From assembly GCA_965223855.1 (NCBI GenBank), contig CBDCXM010000008.1, positions 640,001-704,000 on the forward strand: a DNA stretch of 64,000 nucleotides, given 5' to 3'. Below are positions 54,411 to 59,890 of the stretch, in pieces. Below the pieces are notes generated by a model. The model saw only the letters and a program-made list of their open reading frames with translations. It did not search any database and was not told the DNA's origin. The position numbers and the translations under genes are program-made. This DNA is from Candidatus Multivoradales bacterium (GTDB lineage Bacteria > Acidobacteriota > Thermoanaerobaculia > Multivoradales > JAHEKO01). How positions within the stretch are numbered: the stretch's first letter is position 1; each line of letters opens with the position of its first letter.

Positions 54411-54441
54411 AAGGGCGCCGGACGGATCCGTGGAGAACAGT

Positions 54442-54455
54442 CGTCAGGAGGCCCA
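54442..54455 (-). repeat. 14-bp element TGGGCCTCCTGACG downstream of peptide cassette A
   Basis: Identical to 59693-59706 downstream of cassette B, at a similar distance (~36-38 nt) from the last peptide stop. Confidence 0.7.
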
Positions 54456-54491
54456 ACACATGTTGAATCCCGGAGCTGTTGGCTCCGGCTA

Positions 54492-54542
54492 CTACTCGAA
54501 CCAGGGATTGCCGCCAGCGACCAGGTTGGTTCTCACCTTCAG
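54492..54542 (-). CDS. Small peptide P3 (M/L)KVRTNLVAGGNPWFE, CTG start
   Basis: RBS-like AAAGGGGGTG 7 nt before CTG, the same spacing as P2; homologous to the other four peptides; double TAG stop. Confidence 0.65.
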   Translation of the reverse strand: MKVRTNLVAGGNPWFE

Positions 54543-54622
54543 GGCTCATCACCCCCTTTCCGAAGCATTGGGTTGAGGATGTCTACGACCGGTTCCATGC
54601 TAGGAAGTGCTAGTTGCGGTCA

Positions 54623-54673
54623 CTACTCGAACCACGGGTTCGCACCGACGACGACTTGGGTTCTCGCCTTCAC
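54623..54673 (-). CDS. Small peptide P2 MKARTQVVVGANPWFE
   Basis: RBS AAGGAAGGGGGTG + GTG start; paralog of P3 and P5. Confidence 0.78.
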   Translation of the reverse strand: MKARTQVVVGANPWFE

Positions 54674-54773
54674 AGCGCACCACCCCCTTCCTTGGGTAGT
54701 TGAGAGGATTCTCGATCGCCACGCTGAGCTTCGCGTAATGCTGGTCTCTCCGAAAGCGCCGTGGAGCCTGACG

Positions 54774-54830
54774 CTACTCGAGGATGTGGGCTGTCGACTG
54801 ACCAGCCTTGACGTTGGTCTTGACCTTCAT
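54774..54830 (-). CDS. Small peptide P1 [18 protein letters not shown]
   Basis: RBS AAGGAGG + ATG; paralog of P4; ~60 nt downstream of conserved promoter. Confidence 0.82.
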   Translation of the reverse strand: [18 protein letters not shown]

Positions 54831-54889
54831 CGTCTGCCTCCTTGCAGAGTTGAGTGGGTACGCGATCGTTGGGCGCTCCTGACAATCAG

Positions 54890-54919
54890 GTACGCGGCGT
54901 CGACTCCCGGGTGGACTCA
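54890..54919 (-). promoter_or_regulatory. Putative ECF promoter of peptide cassette A
   Basis: TGAGTC-cacccgggagtcgacgc(17)-CGCGTAC. Confidence 0.7.
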
Positions 54920-55139
54920 CGGCGCAGCCCCCCGCCTCCTGCTCACCAAGGGGCACCTGCCACCGCCAGAGGAAACTCTTCGAAGTCGGCCCGCGTCGGC
55001 ATCCTTCGAGGCTGCCGGCGTGCCAATGGGGCCCTCCGCGACTGGCGCTCTCGAGCGGTCATCTCCACACTACCCGCCCTTGCTGGGCAAGAAGCTGCGG
55101 AGACAGCAAGCCTGCGAGCAAGACAACCGAGAAAGCGGA

Positions 55140-58800: not shown

Positions 58801-58881
58801 CTCATCTCTCTCCGATGCCGGTAGGTCCAGCGCCGCCTGGAAAAGCTCCTCGAGCTGACGCCAACTGCTGTCGAGAGGCAC
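55876..58881 (-). CDS. Membrane Hanks-type Ser/Thr kinase with C-terminal TPR array
   Basis: GRGGMGVVY, VAIK, HRDIKPSN, DFG, TPEYASPE; TM HPVASVLVAGLALSVLLFV; ~10 TPR_10/12-type repeats. Confidence 0.92.
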   Translation of the reverse strand: MPLDSSWRQLEELFQAALDLPASERDEFLVDQCADDVALLAEVRALVSTAERAVGWLEGSAEEAATAKAAPTEVAGYQVEGEIGRGGMGVVYAARGAHGLVAIKILDLPLEAEGARRRFLDEQEILGRLEHPHIAKMLAAGELSDGRPYLVMELVDGIPIDDYCELKGLTVEERLRLVEPVCRAVHHSHQNLVIHRDIKPSNVLVTREGSPKLLDFGIAKRLEPDVEPTQTGEARMTPEYASPEQLRGEASTTASDVFSLGVLLHHLVTGQARGHRGSGEARLSRPSDSVASESAVDLPKCGVGRRRLVRQLRGDVDTIVLAATEPAPGARYPSAEALAADISRFLNGLPLRTRRRSLIYVVSRSARAHPVASVLVAGLALSVLLFVPLLLLEVQRKARALDEAAAQTKRARASTDYVVSLIARADPVSPLGEGVSAQEIVEAGASKLESQLDELPAELAADLSLALGRAFVGLGEYEEARRFLSRSVAAFEERGSVGALVDALRWMAELDRTVGRLAQAREQLERSFQLVEASGSDEALMIADLQLVLGRVEAAEGNLAEAHALHLSALEARRQIAGEHSLELADALFALGETEVQRGEYLEAKGLFEDCVSIRVDLLPHDHLLVGRARLVLGTSLRLLGEFGAAEQELSRAVEILETKIGEDSYELAVGLDHLAKVFASRGQLDRAEPLFRRSLEIVDREVGESPRLGDQLHNLAVLLDLQGRHTEATEFYQRAIRTYETTLGVGSESVASALHNLGTLQLEEGLLEAARPNLEKALDLRISLLGHAHPRSAMTWAAIADLEFLSGRWKEAVQLAEEAAVVLAKAAPDHPDLAYALRTGGMARLADGRGREAEPLLRRALEIRSAALEDLNGEVVQSKVDWARVNLSLGRSAEAAAILRPVIEGQEVEALPIELAVQLAAAHILATDLEDPDSEWTDPERRSESALGFLQTSGATGLEADRVRALALARAGRSDEAWLLARAILDRGVADSRLSDLEPD

Positions 58882-59369
58882 GAACTAGCTCCCGCCCGTT
58901 GAGGATCTGGTGCCGACACACAGGGACGGGTGGAAGACTCGCAGCCTCACCTGCTTCACACGCAGGAGGACGGCGACCGCAGGATCGGGTACCGAAAGAT
59001 CAGCCCAGGGGCGTTTCTCGGACATCAGTTTCGATCCGGTCATGGCCATAATGCTGGTTCTGAACGCGGAGCCGGGGCCATCAACTGTACCCCCTCCAAT
59101 CGTTCTCCCTACTCCAGTAAGCGCGAAGTGGGGAGTTTCGGCTCGGCCTGCGACTGGGCTGGAGGTCTTCAGGCAGCAGAATGTGACGGAGCTGCGCCGT
59201 CCGCCTCATTTCGACCGGTTCTGCGTCCCTGGGCCGCCGCCTGGTGGCGGACACCCTCAAACTCCCGGGGACGGCCAGGCTGGCTCGACAGCGAGGCGAG
59301 GCTCCTGGCCGCTCGAAGTCGGGTTCTTCTACCCGATGATCAGCTGCGCAGGGCTAGCCCCTTCTGTCA

Positions 59370-59399
59370 CGAGTCATCCGCAGCCTCGAGGCCGCGTCC
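59370..59399 (+). promoter_or_regulatory. Putative ECF promoter of peptide cassette B
   Basis: CGAGTC-atccgcagcctcgaggc(17)-CGCGTCC; downstream leader similar to cassette A (TGTC.GGAG.GCCCA). Confidence 0.7.
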
Positions 59400-59458
59400 T
59401 TGGTGTCGGGAGTGCCCAGCCCTCGATCTGAAGTTCTACCTGTGAAGGGAGGCCGTTA

Positions 59459-59515
59459 ATGAGAGTCAGAACCAACCTGCCGGCTGGCGAGTCCACAGTC
59501 GCCATCCTCGGCTAG
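59459..59515 (+). CDS. Small peptide P4 [18 protein letters not shown]
   Basis: RBS AAGGGAGG + ATG; same length (18 aa) and position as P1. Confidence 0.78.
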   Translation: [18 protein letters not shown]

Positions 59516-59603
59516 AACCAACGCCTCGGCGCTCTCGAGGTCGAGGCCTCGAAGAGAACTCAAACCCTCCCCAGCCCTCCATCCATAGAAAGGAGGTGAG
59601 ATC

Positions 59604-59654
59604 GTGAAGGCAAGAACCAACGTAGTCGCCGGCGCCAGTCCATGGCTTGAGTAG
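59604..59654 (+). CDS. Small peptide P5 MKARTNVVAGASPWLE
   Basis: RBS AAAGGAGGTGA + GTG; 16 aa like P2 and P3. Confidence 0.8.
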   Translation: MKARTNVVAGASPWLE

Positions 59655-59692
59655 GTGCCGGTCGAAACTCACTCCGGAGTGGATTGACGGGC

Positions 59693-59706
59693 TGGGCCTC
59701 CTGACG
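59693..59706 (+). repeat. 14-bp element TGGGCCTCCTGACG downstream of peptide cassette B
   Basis: Identical copy at 54442-54455 on the minus strand. Confidence 0.7.
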
Positions 59707-59890
59707 CGCGATCCAATTAGTCGCTGGAGCAGGTTCACGCGGCCCCCGGGGTCCCTCCCTAGTCCAGAGCCAAACACGGCCGCTCGTCGTGATCCTTCCT
59801 CAACTCCCAAGACAAGAAGAAGGGGGCTCGCGGGCAGTCGTCCGCAAGCCACGTCGCGGTTGGCGGCCCGGACGGGCAGAGCCCCTGACC

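What the first reader, a model, noticed from the sequence alone, without database searches (positions are those of the whole stretch)
54440..59710. Candidate new peptide-signalling system: five tiny leader-core peptide genes flanking a TPR-kinase/ECF sigma pair
Seen: five 16-18 aa ORFs below the ORF-track cutoff, each with a strong RBS. On the minus strand just downstream of the sigma gene: P1 [18 protein letters not shown] (54830-54774), P2 MKARTQVVVG-ANPWFE (54673-54623), P3 (M)KVRTNLVAG-GNPWFE (54542-54492). On the plus strand, divergent from the kinase: P4 [18 protein letters not shown] (59459-59515), P5 MKARTNVVAG-ASPWLE (59604-59654). All share a 10-aa basic leader ending in G, and both cassettes carry the same promoter motif. 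Established: ECF43-type sigmas are switched on by Thr phosphorylation by a cognate Hanks kinase (EcfK/PknS in Xanthomonas, EcfP/PknT in Vibrio), and TPR domains often bind short peptides (RRNPP quorum-sensing regulators). Inference: the cores are released after the leader Gly and sensed by the extracytoplasmic TPR array, and the activated sigma re-induces the peptide genes, giving a quorum-like positive feedback loop. No RiPP-modifying enzyme or peptidase-ABC exporter is visible in the window, so the export route is unknown.
Basis: partly seen in the sequence, partly recalled or inferred. Interest (0 to 1): 0.95.

Follow-up and report, generated by a model that had tools for sequence, protein, structure and literature searches.

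The report
Tiny leader-core peptide genes beside sigma-kinase pair
Five real 16-18-residue peptide genes flank a kinase and sigma-factor pair; they belong to a large, apparently undescribed family of exported mini-peptides that repeatedly sits beside such sensor pairs and may be their signals.

Summary
All five ORFs are where stated, each with a Shine-Dalgarno site. A broad leader regex plus RBS filter hits only 7 places in the 4.5 Mb genome. Six are this family: the five here and a sixth 14 kb past the window.

They are short members of a large unnamed family, M-K-x-K-T-N-V-K-A-G plus a hypervariable core. It turned up in 45 loci from 32 assemblies and in more than 120 metagenome stretches, with no Pfam, NCBIfam or literature match.

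A homologous ECF sigma or Hanks kinase lies in the held DNA of 25 of 45 genome loci and of 14 of 26 metagenome loci of at least 5 kb. A HlyD / C39-peptidase ABC / second ABC exporter recurs in 17 of 45.

One promoter-like motif precedes both cassettes, the sixth peptide gene and the exporter operon.

So the leader-core design, cleavage and export, and the genetic coupling to sigma/kinase pairs are well supported. Sensing of the cores by the kinase's TPR ectodomain, and positive feedback, remain untested inference at about 0.35. No tailoring enzyme recurs. Verdict: a new variant of known kinds, of high interest.

The parts
54774..54830 (-). P1, 18-aa peptide gene [18 protein letters not shown] (class A core)
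   Evidence: ATG start, AAGGAGG RBS
54623..54673 (-). P2, 16-aa peptide gene (GTG) KARTQVVVG|ANPWFE (class B core, Trp at +4)
54492..54542 (-). P3, 16-aa ORF KVRTNLVAG|GNPWFE whose first codon is CTG, so either a weak start or a decaying copy
   Evidence: a stop lies two codons upstream in frame
59459..59515 (+). P4, 18-aa peptide gene [18 protein letters not shown] (class A core)
59604..59654 (+). P5, 16-aa peptide gene (GTG) KARTNVVAG|ASPWLE (class B core)
   Evidence: 79% complementary to the P3 arm over 57 nt (I1)
54890..54920 (-). promoter-like two-block motif GTGAG-N19-CGCGTAC, ending 59 nt before the P1 ATG
59369..59399 (+). variant of the same motif, ACGAG-N19-CGCGTCC, ending 59 nt before the P4 ATG
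   Evidence: read directly; not matched by the strict regex
55140..55766 (-). ECF sigma factor, TIGR02999 / Pfam Sigma70_ECF (ECF43-like); region 2.2 reads APTALVNEAY
   Evidence: sister of the second island sigma in the tree
55876..58881 (-). Hanks-type Ser/Thr kinase, 1001 aa: kinase domain 77-272, one hydrophobic segment at about 368-386, C-terminal TPR_12/TPR_10 array (presumed extracytoplasmic)
54442..54455 (.). 14-nt element (CGTCAGGAGGCCCA on the + strand) 37 nt after the P3 stop; perfect inverted copy of 59693-59706
   Evidence: I25; the fold is not significant
59693..59706 (.). 14-nt element TGGGCCTCCTGACG 39 nt after the P5 stop; part of the duplicated cassette
   Evidence: (I25)
59890..59920 (+). 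further copy of the motif (CTGAG-N19-CGCGTCC) upstream of a secreted SGL beta-propeller gene (59992-60975)
49768..49798 (+). further copy of the motif upstream of a 283-aa lipoprotein-like Zn-protease-like gene (49890-50741)
62794..62824 (+). further copy of the motif upstream of an unannotated secreted protein gene (62930 and onward)
35905..35935 (-). further copy of the motif upstream of a 459-aa ORF with a weak Peptidase_S41 match
41801..41831 (+). further copy of the motif at the start of a 314-aa ORF with no Pfam match

Best explanation
The five ORFs are genuine genes for precursor mini-peptides of a large, so far unnamed family. A 10-residue basic leader (M-K/R-x-K/R-T-N/Q-V/L-x-A/V-G) is followed by a hypervariable core of 6-8 residues. 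Proposed mechanism, step by step, with my odds for each step. (1) The genes are transcribed from an ECF-type two-block promoter, [C/G]TGAG-N19-CGCG(T/A)nC, which also drives the exporter operon and the sixth peptide gene. The motif is shown; its use by the adjacent sigma is inferred (0.55). (2) The precursors are recognised by the C39 peptidase domain of a HlyD / C39-ABC / ABC2 exporter encoded at C8:718436-724297, that is 14.4-20.3 kb beyond the window end. They are cut after the leader Gly and secreted. The genetic association and the intact catalytic site are shown; cleavage is inferred (0.7). (3) Outside the cell the free cores ([34 protein letters not shown]) bind the extracytoplasmic TPR array of the adjacent Hanks kinase. 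The kinase then phosphorylates the ECF43-like sigma on the region-2.2 Thr, and the sigma raises transcription of the peptide, exporter and neighbouring secretome genes. This would be an autoinducer-type loop wired through a Ser/Thr kinase and an ECF sigma instead of a histidine kinase and a response regulator (inferred, 0.35-0.4). The stated confidence is for the whole chain including step 3. That these are real, exported leader-core peptides functionally tied to the sigma/kinase module I hold at about 0.75-0.8.
For: The genes are real and form a family. Only 6 family members occur in the genome, all clustered. Third-codon positions carry the excess of differences, 18/24/48. The same leader is encoded with all synonymous Ala and Gly codons in 131 instances from 34 loci (those instances were selected by peptide regex, so this is only illustrative). 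One search found 74 database proteins with repeats of leader, variable stretch and NHNETLVR. One search found 45 genome loci in 32 assemblies. One search found more than 120 metagenome stretches; in the 80 loci fetched there are 131 short mini-genes in 63 loci, with 117 distinct cores, modal core length 6 and median 7. Trp stands at core position 4 in 17 of 131 but at most 3 of 131 at any other of the first six positions. That is the class of P2, P3 and P5. Export: the recurrent neighbours are HlyD, a Peptidase_C39 ABC and a second ABC. Export genes are present in 17 of 45 genome loci and in 12 of 80 metagenome loci, 7 of the 26 that hold at least 5 kb. The organism's own cassette has a C39 domain (Pfam 66.2 bits). 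Its Gln, Cys (DCG), His (HFVV) and Asp (DP) align with PCAT1 chain 4ry2, and the solved variant 7n87 carries Ala exactly at that Cys. Coupling to sigma/kinase: a homologue is present in 25 of 45 genome loci and within 600 nt of a peptide gene in 15 of 45. It is present in 19 of 80 metagenome loci, 14 of the 26 that hold at least 5 kb. The metagenome set was found by the leader alone. Arrays of 2-3 tandem 16-aa genes lie directly divergent from sigma-kinase operons in L114, L085 and L076, between kinase and sigma in L108, and alternating with kinases in L132. Rough background: 7 TIGR02999 sigmas in 4.5 Mb, roughly 3% for a random 20 kb stretch by my own rough estimate. Promoter: the strict motif occurs 25 times in 9.04 Mb of strand, and 14 of these lie in C8:630-760 kb, which is 2.9% of the space with about 0.7 expected. 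Leaving out the three sites used to write the regex gives 11 of 22. The sites precede P1, P6 and the HlyD operon. The same block spacing (GTGA-N20-CGC) stands upstream of peptide genes in other genomes: 9 of 44 by regex and 21 of 44 by a position matrix trained on those same regions. Topology: kinases of these loci have one hydrophobic segment after the kinase domain, including the window's own (crude hydropathy). A profile of the cytoplasmic TPR-only proteins of the family hits the window kinase's TPR region at E 3.5e-30. Thr phosphorylation of ECF43 sigmas by cognate Hanks kinases is established (passages of PMC13147305).
Against: There is no expression or peptide data: no RNA run holds the stretch. 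The leader is unlike canonical double-glycine leaders. It is basic and only 10 residues long, with no acidic or Leu pattern, as judged against the logo description in PMC2887384. In the organism's own genome the exporter is about 19 kb from the nearest cassette (P5). Export genes are not seen in 28 of 45 genome loci or 68 of 80 metagenome loci, many of which are short contigs. Twenty of 45 genome loci show no sigma or kinase in the held DNA, some of them 20 kb long. Only 2 of the 7 TIGR02999 sigma loci of this genome have family peptides nearby. The promoter motif is shared with many unrelated secreted-protein genes. It was not found upstream of sigma/kinase operons. So neither its assignment to this sigma nor any autoregulation is shown. 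The sigma tree gives no dedicated peptide-associated clade. Arrays carry up to 6-9 different cores, which is more typical of effectors than of one signal. P3 lacks a normal start codon. Binding to the TPR domain is untested.
Confidence: 0.4

Rival explanations
1. Output-only effectors. The peptides are exported and cleaved as above but act on other cells or on the environment, for example as antimicrobial, anti-predator, metal-binding or surface-active mini-peptides. The sigma/kinase pair senses something else and merely switches them on along with the other secreted proteins of the island.
For: The same promoter-like motif precedes at least five other genes in the window and more beyond it, several with signal peptides. 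Arrays hold many different cores. An Rce1/CPBP-type intramembrane protease follows P6; such proteins often serve as bacteriocin immunity or maturation factors (recalled). Double-glycine peptides with PCAT and HlyD in Gram-negatives are typically class II microcins (listing and abstract starts only).
Against: Cores of 4-8 residues (mode 6) are far shorter than known unmodified bacteriocins (recalled). No recurrent immunity-like gene appears among the neighbour clusters. The CPBP gene was seen only in the organism's own locus. The tight, repeated placement of the mini-genes against or between sensor and regulator genes is the pattern of inducer peptides in Gram-positive three-component systems (recalled).
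Confidence: 0.3
2. RiPP precursors. The cores are post-translationally modified (cyclised, cross-linked at Trp, or lipidated at a C-terminal Cys, for example) by enzymes encoded elsewhere, and the leader is a recognition sequence for those enzymes as well as for the exporter. The TPR-only protein may be the leader-binding scaffold.
For: A conserved leader, and in the long forms a conserved NHN(E/Q)T follower, flanks hypervariable cores with up to 8 repeats per precursor, as in multi-core RiPPs. There are recurrent core classes with fixed residues: Trp at +4 in 17 of 131, and C-terminal Cys in IIVVC and PPDPC. A cytoplasmic TPR-only protein is encoded in 22 of 45 loci, within 600 nt of a peptide gene in 10.
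Against: No radical-SAM, YcaO, LanM, ATP-grasp, P450 or other tailoring family is among the recurrent neighbour clusters of the 45 loci. The only families present in at least 13 loci are TPR/kinase, ABC, sigma, HlyD and the peptides themselves plus their antisense ORFs. None lies within the window near the cassettes.
Confidence: 0.15
3. Intracellular regulators. The mini-peptides are not exported. They act in the cytoplasm, for example on the TPR-only protein, on the juxtamembrane part of the kinase, or on the sigma, which has no anti-sigma factor.
For: The TPR-only partner lacks any hydrophobic segment. The peptides have no Sec signal. The sigma/kinase association is stronger than the exporter association in the metagenome set, 19 against 12 of 80.
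Against: C39-ABC/HlyD cassettes recur (17 of 45). In the organism's own genome they share the promoter motif and an operon-like arrangement with P6. The hypervariability of the cores fits extracellular roles better.
Confidence: 0.07
4. Not genes at all: chance ORFs inside a duplicated non-coding element such as a repeated regulatory or small-RNA cassette.
For: The cassettes are nucleotide-level repeats that include flanks (D1, I1, I2, I25). P3 has no canonical start.
Against: The family is conserved at peptide level across phyla with free synonymous change. Differences show a codon-position bias. A strong RBS precedes every copy. There is no Rfam match and no significant fold downstream.
Confidence: 0.02

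Closest known systems
Gram-positive three-component double-glycine pheromone systems (ComC/ComAB/ComDE, BlpC/BlpAB/BlpHR, PlnA) - recalled; only listing and abstract starts seen for 10.1101/783472 and PMC5295010
   Same: A small precursor with an N-terminal leader is cut by the C39 domain of a peptidase-containing ABC exporter. The peptide gene sits against the sensor and regulator genes. Several peptide genes share one exporter and one promoter type.
   Different: Here the sensor is a Hanks Ser/Thr kinase with a TPR ectodomain, and the regulator is an ECF sigma factor rather than a histidine kinase and response regulator. The leader is basic and only 10 residues long. Cores are 4-8 residues. 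The hosts are diderm phyla, with HlyD and a second ABC subunit. Sensing is not shown.
ECF43 sigma / Hanks kinase pairs (EcfK/PknS of Xanthomonas citri, EcfP/PknT of Vibrio parahaemolyticus) - passages of PMC13147305; Iyer et al. 2020 not seen
   Same: A TIGR02999-type sigma is co-encoded with a transmembrane Hanks kinase that has periplasmic TPRs. No anti-sigma factor was seen. A Thr stands in region 2.2 where other sigmas have DxxD.
   Different: No ligand is known for PknS or PknT. No peptide genes or C39 exporters are reported with them in the passages read. The window's kinase has a much longer TPR array, about 460 residues covered by Pfam TPR matches.
NHLP/Nif11 export cassette TIGR03794 / TIGR03796 / TIGR03797 (Haft et al. 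2010, PMC2887384, passages)
   Same: The same three-gene architecture: a HlyD-like adaptor, an ABC with a peptidase domain, and an ABC without one. It is associated with hypervariable cores behind a conserved leader ending in Gly.
   Different: The organism's own proteins score far below the equivalog cut-offs: 42.4 against 156.2, 156.6 against 853.3, and 107.2 against 709.4 bits. The leaders are unrelated, 10 basic residues against about 70-90 residues of NHase-like or Nif11-like sequence. No LanM or cyclodehydratase partner is present.
Class II microcins and PatS/HetC of Nostoc (listing and abstract starts only, PMC12219008 and PMC10986499; PatS details recalled)
   Same: Gram-negative peptides depend on PCAT and a membrane-fusion protein. 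PatS is likewise a gene of about 13-17 codons whose C-terminal few residues act as a diffusible signal (recalled).
   Different: Microcins are much longer. PatS acts on a cytoplasmic transcription factor, not through a receptor kinase. There is no sequence similarity to either.
RRNPP peptide quorum sensing (recalled)
   Same: Short hydrophobic peptides are read by TPR domains.
   Different: RRNPP receptors are cytoplasmic TPR proteins fused to HTH or phosphatase domains. Their peptides leave by Sec and return by Opp. Here the family's TPR-only protein has no HTH, export is by PCAT, and the candidate receptor is a membrane kinase.

Membership tests
ECF43-type (TIGR02999) sigma factor regulated by a Hanks kinase | Matches the TIGR02999 / Sigma70_ECF profile above the curated cut-off | tested here: met
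   194.4 bits against a cut-off of 126.15; PF07638 at 174.6 bits
ECF43-type (TIGR02999) sigma factor regulated by a Hanks kinase | Co-encoded Hanks-type Ser/Thr kinase | tested here: met
   The kinase stop is 109 nt upstream of the sigma start on the same strand
ECF43-type (TIGR02999) sigma factor regulated by a Hanks kinase | Region 2.2 DxxD replaced by uncharged residues with a conserved Thr (QTTA consensus, PMC13147305) | tested here: inconclusive
   The sigma reads A-P-T-A-LVNEAY, so it has a Thr and no acidic residues. This is my own reading; I made no alignment to EcfK or EcfP.
ECF43-type (TIGR02999) sigma factor regulated by a Hanks kinase | Phosphorylation of the sigma by the kinase | not testable with these tools
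   Needs biochemistry
Double-glycine (PCAT-processed) leader peptides | [quoted passage not shown] | tested here: met
   Gly at leader position 10 is invariant in alignments A1 and A3, Ala at position 9 is at least 90% in A1, and the sequence after it is hypervariable
Double-glycine (PCAT-processed) leader peptides | Canonical leader pattern (acidic residues, Leu/Ile at fixed spacing, about 15-25 residues) | tested here: not met
   The leader is 10 residues, has 2-4 Lys/Arg and no acidic residue, compared with the logo description in PMC2887384
Double-glycine (PCAT-processed) leader peptides | Cognate ABC exporter with a catalytically intact C39 domain | tested here: met
   The organism's own genome has PF03412 at 66.2 bits, and Gln, Cys, His and Asp align with PCAT1. 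A C39-ABC is present in 16 of 45 related loci.
Double-glycine (PCAT-processed) leader peptides | Cleavage at the Gly motif during export | not testable with these tools
   Needs an in vitro protease assay or peptidomics
NHLP/Nif11 bacteriocin export system (TIGR03794/6/7) | Three-gene cassette: HlyD, ABC with peptidase, ABC without peptidase | tested here: met
NHLP/Nif11 bacteriocin export system (TIGR03794/6/7) | Scores above the equivalog cut-offs, and an NHLP or Nif11 precursor | tested here: not met
   42.4 against 156.2, 156.6 against 853.3, and 107.2 against 709.4 bits. The precursors have no NCBIfam or Pfam match.
RiPP biosynthetic cluster | A tailoring enzyme co-located with the precursor | tested here: not met
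   None among the recurrent neighbour clusters of the 45 loci, nor near the cassettes. Enzymes encoded elsewhere are not excluded.
RRNPP quorum sensing | Cytoplasmic TPR receptor fused to an HTH or phosphatase effector domain | tested here: not met
   TPR-only proteins show only TPR families in Pfam. The organism's own genome has no stand-alone copy.

The most novel reading that the evidence does not exclude
This would be a peptide-pheromone (quorum or kin-recognition) system of diderm soil bacteria: Acidobacteriota, and also Verrucomicrobiota and Planctomycetota. Hypervariable 4-8-residue peptides are released by a C39-ABC exporter from a 10-residue basic leader. They are read by the TPR ectodomains of Hanks Ser/Thr kinases, which switch on ECF43-type sigma factors by phosphorylation. 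That would give the first ligand class for this large orphan family of sigma-kinase pairs. The tandem kinase/peptide arrays would then be diversifying receptor-ligand pairs (pherotypes).
Probability: 0.33. Interest if true: 0.92.

Novelty: new variant of a known kind. Interest (0 to 1): 0.76.

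Why it matters
ECF43-type sigma / Hanks-kinase pairs are numerous in Acidobacteriota, Planctomycetota and several Proteobacteria, with 7 in this genome alone. The signals their kinases sense are unknown; in the passages read of PMC13147305 no ligand for PknS is named. A family of mini-genes repeatedly placed against these pairs, with its own exporter and promoter, gives concrete synthetic candidates of six to eight residues that can be tested directly on purified ectodomains and reporters.

Independently of that, the family is a large reservoir of ultra-short secreted peptides. There are 117 different cores in 131 genes from only 80 contigs. Gene callers and protein databases miss them because the ORFs are 14-25 codons long. 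The long multi-repeat form, with up to eight leader / variable / NHN(E/Q)T units, would be an unusual substrate for a C39 exporter.

Tried and rejected
Complex prediction. I submitted a TPR-only protein (alignment A2, first row from L021) with its adjacent 81-aa precursor (A3). The verdict was 'no answer', score 0.01 against a mark of 0.32, controls were not run, and the partner's own fold was uncertain. This is neither for nor against binding. The window's own peptides (16-18 aa) are below the 30-residue minimum, so they were not sent.

Expression. The look-up of sequencing runs listed no RNA holder, only 4 contig-level holders from one study.

Close relatives of the NPW[FL]E cores. A 39-nt degenerate pattern found 0 stretches in metagenome contigs.

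Orthologues. The window kinase has no close orthologue in 45 genomes of its class; the best hit is 34% identity over 773 residues. The exact leader patterns were found in 14 of 401 genomes (mostly chance, with 7 control hits and only G214 a true member) and in 2 of 401 genomes (the window's own genome and G214) of the phylum sample.

Promoter transfer. A position matrix trained on Blastocatellia-type upstream regions does not pick out the organism's own cassettes; its top genome-wide hits look like noise. That matrix was trained and scored on the same 44 regions, so its 21 of 44 is descriptive only.

Sigma phylogeny. The tree has 12 of 22 inner branches open, and peptide-associated sigmas do not form one clade. 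The only finding kept is that the two island sigmas are sisters (81/86).

Other negatives. The sigma-70 promoter scan found 0 sites and terminator-like sites were at chance level. Folds downstream of P3, P5 and P6 were not significant, with z of -1.09, +0.66 and -0.44. The antisense ORF over P3 is not conserved over P5; the frames differ (my reading). The similarity of the leader to the N-terminus of ribosomal protein L36 (recalled) was considered and dropped as coincidence. The ESM Atlas gave only unnamed 'hypothetical protein' clusters, a lead only.

Literature. The strings [20 protein letters not shown] and VKTNVKAGG occur in 0 papers. Searches found no description of these peptides. Subscription-only papers, Iyer et al. 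2020 and all supplementary tables (closed) were not seen, and those tables may list genomic contexts of ECF43 members.

Full report
**Observation.** Each is preceded by a strong purine-rich ribosome-binding site. The start codons are ATG (P1, P4), GTG (P2, P5) and CTG (P3). P3 has a stop two codons upstream in frame, so it either uses a rare CTG start or is a decaying copy.

A much looser leader regex that also requires a start codon and an RBS gives 7 hits. Six of them are this family. The sixth member, TTG-KVKTKVKAGQSLMPILE, lies at C8:718260-718204, 14.2 kb beyond the window's right end; the window is C8:640001-704000.

Among the paralogues, nucleotide differences fall 18/24/48 on codon positions 1/2/3. 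Rfam finds nothing in 54000-60200 at E<=1.

The two cassettes are an inverted duplication. Each carries one class-A core ([16 protein letters not shown]) followed by class-B cores (ANPWFE and GNPWFE, or ASPWLE). The similarity extends into the flanks, including a perfect 14-nt element 37-39 nt after the last stop.

**The flanked genes.** 55140-55766(-) is a TIGR02999 / Sigma70_ECF sigma factor, 194.4 bits against a cut-off of 126.15. 55876-58881(-) is a 1001-residue Hanks kinase with a Pkinase domain at 77-272, one hydrophobic segment near 368-386, and a TPR_12/TPR_10 array.

The sigma's region 2.2 reads APTALVNEAY. So it has a Thr and no acidic residues where ECF43 members have the QTTA consensus, according to passages of PMC13147305. 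This is my own reading; I did not align it.

The other neighbours are a beta-lactamase-fold / D-aminopeptidase-like protein, an SGL beta-propeller and a TAP-like alpha/beta hydrolase.

**The family.** A degenerate DNA pattern for the leader, scanned over 400 genomes of the phylum, found one true relative, G214. There a 60-residue protein reads [60 protein letters not shown] and is followed by a TPR_12 protein.

That protein has no Pfam or NCBIfam match even at E<=10. It does have 74 relatives in the 5.8-billion-protein collection. All are 'hypothetical', and all are built of repeats of [10 protein letters not shown], 3-10 variable residues, and NHNETLVR.

An alignment of these (A1) retrieved 45 loci from 32 MAG assemblies among 185,579 species genomes. 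Most are Acidobacteriota (Blastocatellia, Pyrinomonadaceae, Vicinamibacterales, Bryobacterales, Terriglobia). Others are labelled Verrucomicrobiota, Planctomycetota, 'Deltaproteobacteria', Acidimicrobiia, Eisenbacteria and Elarobacter.

In these loci I found 78 peptide ORFs with 189 leader repeats, 1-8 repeats per ORF. Beside them are single-core ORFs without the NHN(E/Q)T follower, like the window's.

A second, independent scan used only the leader: ATG-K-x-K-T-N-x-K-A-G as DNA, against JGI metagenome contigs. The 80 loci fetched hold 131 short mini-genes in 63 loci, against 16 long forms among 148 complete leader ORFs, one of which was a HlyD-like false hit. There are 117 distinct cores, with modal length 6 and median 7.

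So the window's peptides are typical members of the commoner, short form. Trp stands at core position 4 in 17 of 131 (TAVWGS, SAVWGS, NALWGS and others) and at most 3 of 131 at any other of the first six positions. P2, P3 and P5 (xxPW[FL]E) and the G214 cores (CAVW, AAVW) share this feature. The class-A cores resemble the ...TPIL(F/W/M/L) C-termini seen in Blastocatellia loci.

The family is patchy. The exact typical leader occurs in 2 of 401 sampled genomes of the phylum, the window's own and G214, with 0 control hits.

**Neighbours.** I called ORFs crudely in the 45 loci and two regions of the organism's own genome (657 ORFs) and clustered them by BLASTP. The recurrent clusters are listed below, each out of 47 regions (the 45 loci plus the two regions of the organism's own genome):
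- TPR-containing proteins, both kinase-TPR and TPR-only (38 of 47 regions).
- A pair of ABC transporters (19).
- The sigma factor (16).
- A HlyD protein (13).
- The peptides themselves and their antisense ORFs.

Pfam and NCBIfam confirm HlyD_3, Peptidase_C39 plus ABC_tran, a second ABC_tran without peptidase, Sigma70_ECF, and TPR_10/TPR_12.

Counting only the 45 foreign loci:
- A sigma or kinase homologue is in the held DNA of 25, and within 600 nt of a peptide gene in 15.
- A TPR-only protein is in 22.
- Export genes are in 17.
- Both sigma/kinase and export genes are in 10.
- Eleven loci show none of these.

Several loci come from one MAG (eight from one Blastocatellia assembly), and L050 and L052 are near-identical, so the counts are not independent. 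The fullest loci read sigma, kinase, peptide(s), TPR-only, HlyD, C39-ABC, ABC2 (L031 for example).

In the leader-only metagenome set, 19 of 80 loci have sigma or kinase and 12 of 80 have export genes. Among the 26 loci that hold at least 5 kb the figures are 14 and 7.

The arrangements match the window's. Two or three tandem 16-codon genes lie directly divergent from a sigma-kinase operon in L114, L085 and L076. Three lie between kinase and sigma in L108. Kinases alternate with peptide arrays in L132. In L088 a kinase is followed by three mini-genes, convergent with C39-ABC and ABC2.

As rough background, this genome has 7 TIGR02999 sigmas in 4.5 Mb, so by my own rough estimate a random 20 kb stretch would hold one about 3% of the time.

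No tailoring-enzyme family recurs. The further clusters are histidine kinases, TonB-type outer-membrane proteins and MacB/FtsX.

**The exporter of this genome.** Just outside the window, on the minus strand of C8, lie five genes in a row:
- HlyD (724297-723074).
- A C39-ABC (723081-720493).
- A second ABC (720538-718436).
- P6 (718260-718204).
- An Rce1/CPBP-type intramembrane protease (717958-716930).

Divergent from them are a second TIGR02999 sigma (724667-725278) and a 370-residue soluble kinase.

The N-terminal 150 residues of the C39-ABC align with the peptidase domain of PCAT1 (4ry2). The Gln, the Cys of DCG, the His of HFVV and the Asp of DP are conserved, and the solved variant 7n87 has Ala at exactly that Cys.

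The three-gene architecture is that of the NHLP/Nif11 export cassette (passages of PMC2887384). The scores are far below the equivalog cut-offs, so I do not file it as a member.

The two island sigmas are each other's closest relatives in a 26-row tree (81/86). The rest of that tree is unresolved.

**Promoter.** Upstream of P1, P6 and the HlyD operon stands GTGAG-N19-CGCG(T/A)nC. P4 has ACGAG-N19-CGCGTCC. In both window cassettes the motif ends 59 nt before the first ATG.

The strict regex [CG]TGAG-N19-CGCG[TA][ACT]C occurs 25 times in 9.04 Mb of strand. Fourteen of these are in C8:630-760 kb, which is 2.9% of the space with about 0.7 expected. Without the three sites from which I wrote the regex, the count is 11 of 22.

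The other island sites precede genes for secreted or unannotated proteins. Within the window these are at 35935(-), 41801, 49768, 59890 and 62794.

In other genomes the same spacing (GTGA-N20-CGC) stands 85-130 nt upstream of peptide genes. It matches in 9 of 44 upstream regions by regex and in 21 of 44 with a matrix trained on those same regions. There are 35 sites of at least 20 bits in 1.42 Mb of strand. They lie before peptide genes, three TPR-only genes and some unknown genes, but before none of the sigma or kinase genes.

No sigma-70-like promoter is found in 54300-60100. I therefore take the motif to be an alternative-sigma promoter. Its assignment to the adjacent sigma is an inference, and there is no sign of autoregulation of the sigma-kinase operon.

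**Topology and TPR.** By a crude hydropathy scan, 22 of the 24 kinases over 800 residues listed, including the window's own, have one hydrophobic segment after the kinase domain. One shows none, and two near-identical ones show an extra weak segment inside the kinase domain. The TPR-only proteins of 363-397 residues have none. So the kinase TPR arrays should face outward and the TPR-only proteins should be cytoplasmic.

A profile of the TPR-only proteins (A2) finds no stand-alone copy in this genome. It does hit the window kinase's TPR region at E 3.5e-30 and 4.1e-25.

**Interpretation.** The following are shown:
- The mini-ORFs are conserved coding genes with a leader-core design.
- They travel with C39-ABC/HlyD exporters and with ECF43-like sigma / Hanks-kinase pairs.
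- In this genome peptides and exporter share one promoter-like motif.

The following are inferred:
- Cleavage after the leader Gly.
- Secretion.
- Dependence on the adjacent sigma.
- Above all, recognition of the free cores by the kinase's TPR ectodomain.

The best analogy is the Gram-positive inducer-peptide / PCAT / sensor / regulator arrangement (recalled), rewired through a Ser/Thr kinase and an ECF sigma. Several observations weigh against a pure signal role. Arrays carry many different cores. The motif is shared with many secreted-protein genes. Only 2 of 7 sigma loci of this genome have such peptides. There are no expression data at all.

I give the full loop 0.35-0.4, output-only effectors 0.3, remote-enzyme RiPPs 0.15, intracellular action 0.07 and non-genes 0.02.

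**Novelty.** I found no description of the peptide family. The sequence strings occur in 0 papers, five further literature searches found nothing, there is no profile match, and the ESM Atlas has only unnamed clusters. Supplementary files, and Iyer et al. 2020 with its survey of ECF43 contexts, could not be seen.

The parts are of known kinds: a Gly-terminated leader, a PCAT exporter and an ECF43 sigma/kinase pair. Their combination, the 10-residue basic leader and the multi-repeat long form are new variants.

Noticed in passing
window 35905-62824 and beyond (C8:630-760 kb): A 130 kb 'island' holds 14 of the genome's 25 copies of [CG]TGAG-N19-CGCG[TA][ACT]C. Many copies lie upstream of genes for secreted or lipoprotein-like proteins, glycosyltransferases and the exporter. 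It looks like the regulon of one or both island ECF sigmas.
   Followed up: partly
L021-L065, e.g. L031:8981-10420, L023:7452-7931: Long-form precursors carry 2-8 tandem units of [10 protein letters not shown], 3-15 variable residues, and NHN(E/Q)T-x-x-R. Each unit contains an N-x-T sequon. It is unknown whether every unit is cut by the C39 exporter or whether the unit folds as a hairpin with a variable loop.
   Followed up: partly
L027-L054 (Blastocatellia-type loci): A very well conserved two-block element, CCGTGAnCGATTTC-N10-TTCGCCTGTATrGG, lies 85-130 nt upstream of peptide genes and of some TPR-only genes. It is often followed by a GC-rich inverted repeat (GCGGCGAnnnTCGCCGC).
   Followed up: partly
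L067:930-1958 (-), i.e. C8:716930-717958: An Rce1/CPBP-type intramembrane protease gene lies directly downstream of P6. Separately, many metagenomic cores end in Cys (IIVVC, LIIVVC, VPPDPC). Any link, such as C-terminal processing or lipidation, is untested.
   Followed up: no
window 54442-54455 and 59693-59706: A perfect 14-nt element (TGGGCCTCCTGACG on the coding strand) lies 37-39 nt after the last gene of each cassette, and a partial copy (TGGGCCTG) follows P6. Its function is unknown, and the fold there is not significant.
   Followed up: partly
window 54294-55733 (+): A 479-codon open frame runs antisense to the sigma gene and to P1-P3. In this 68% GC genome it is almost certainly spurious, but an automatic caller could pick it and thereby hide the mini-genes.
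   Followed up: no
G000:C9:332988 (-): The best genome-wide hit of the Blastocatellia-trained promoter matrix (20.6 bits) lies about 3.7 kb upstream of another TIGR02999 sigma gene (C9:328715-329245, -), where a kinase-sigma operon would start. It is a single hit among noise.
   Followed up: no
window 43866-49576: A run of glycosyltransferase-like and sulfotransferase-like ORFs and a large multi-pass membrane protein looks like a polysaccharide or glycan-biosynthesis cluster next to the island. I read this from translations only.
   Followed up: no
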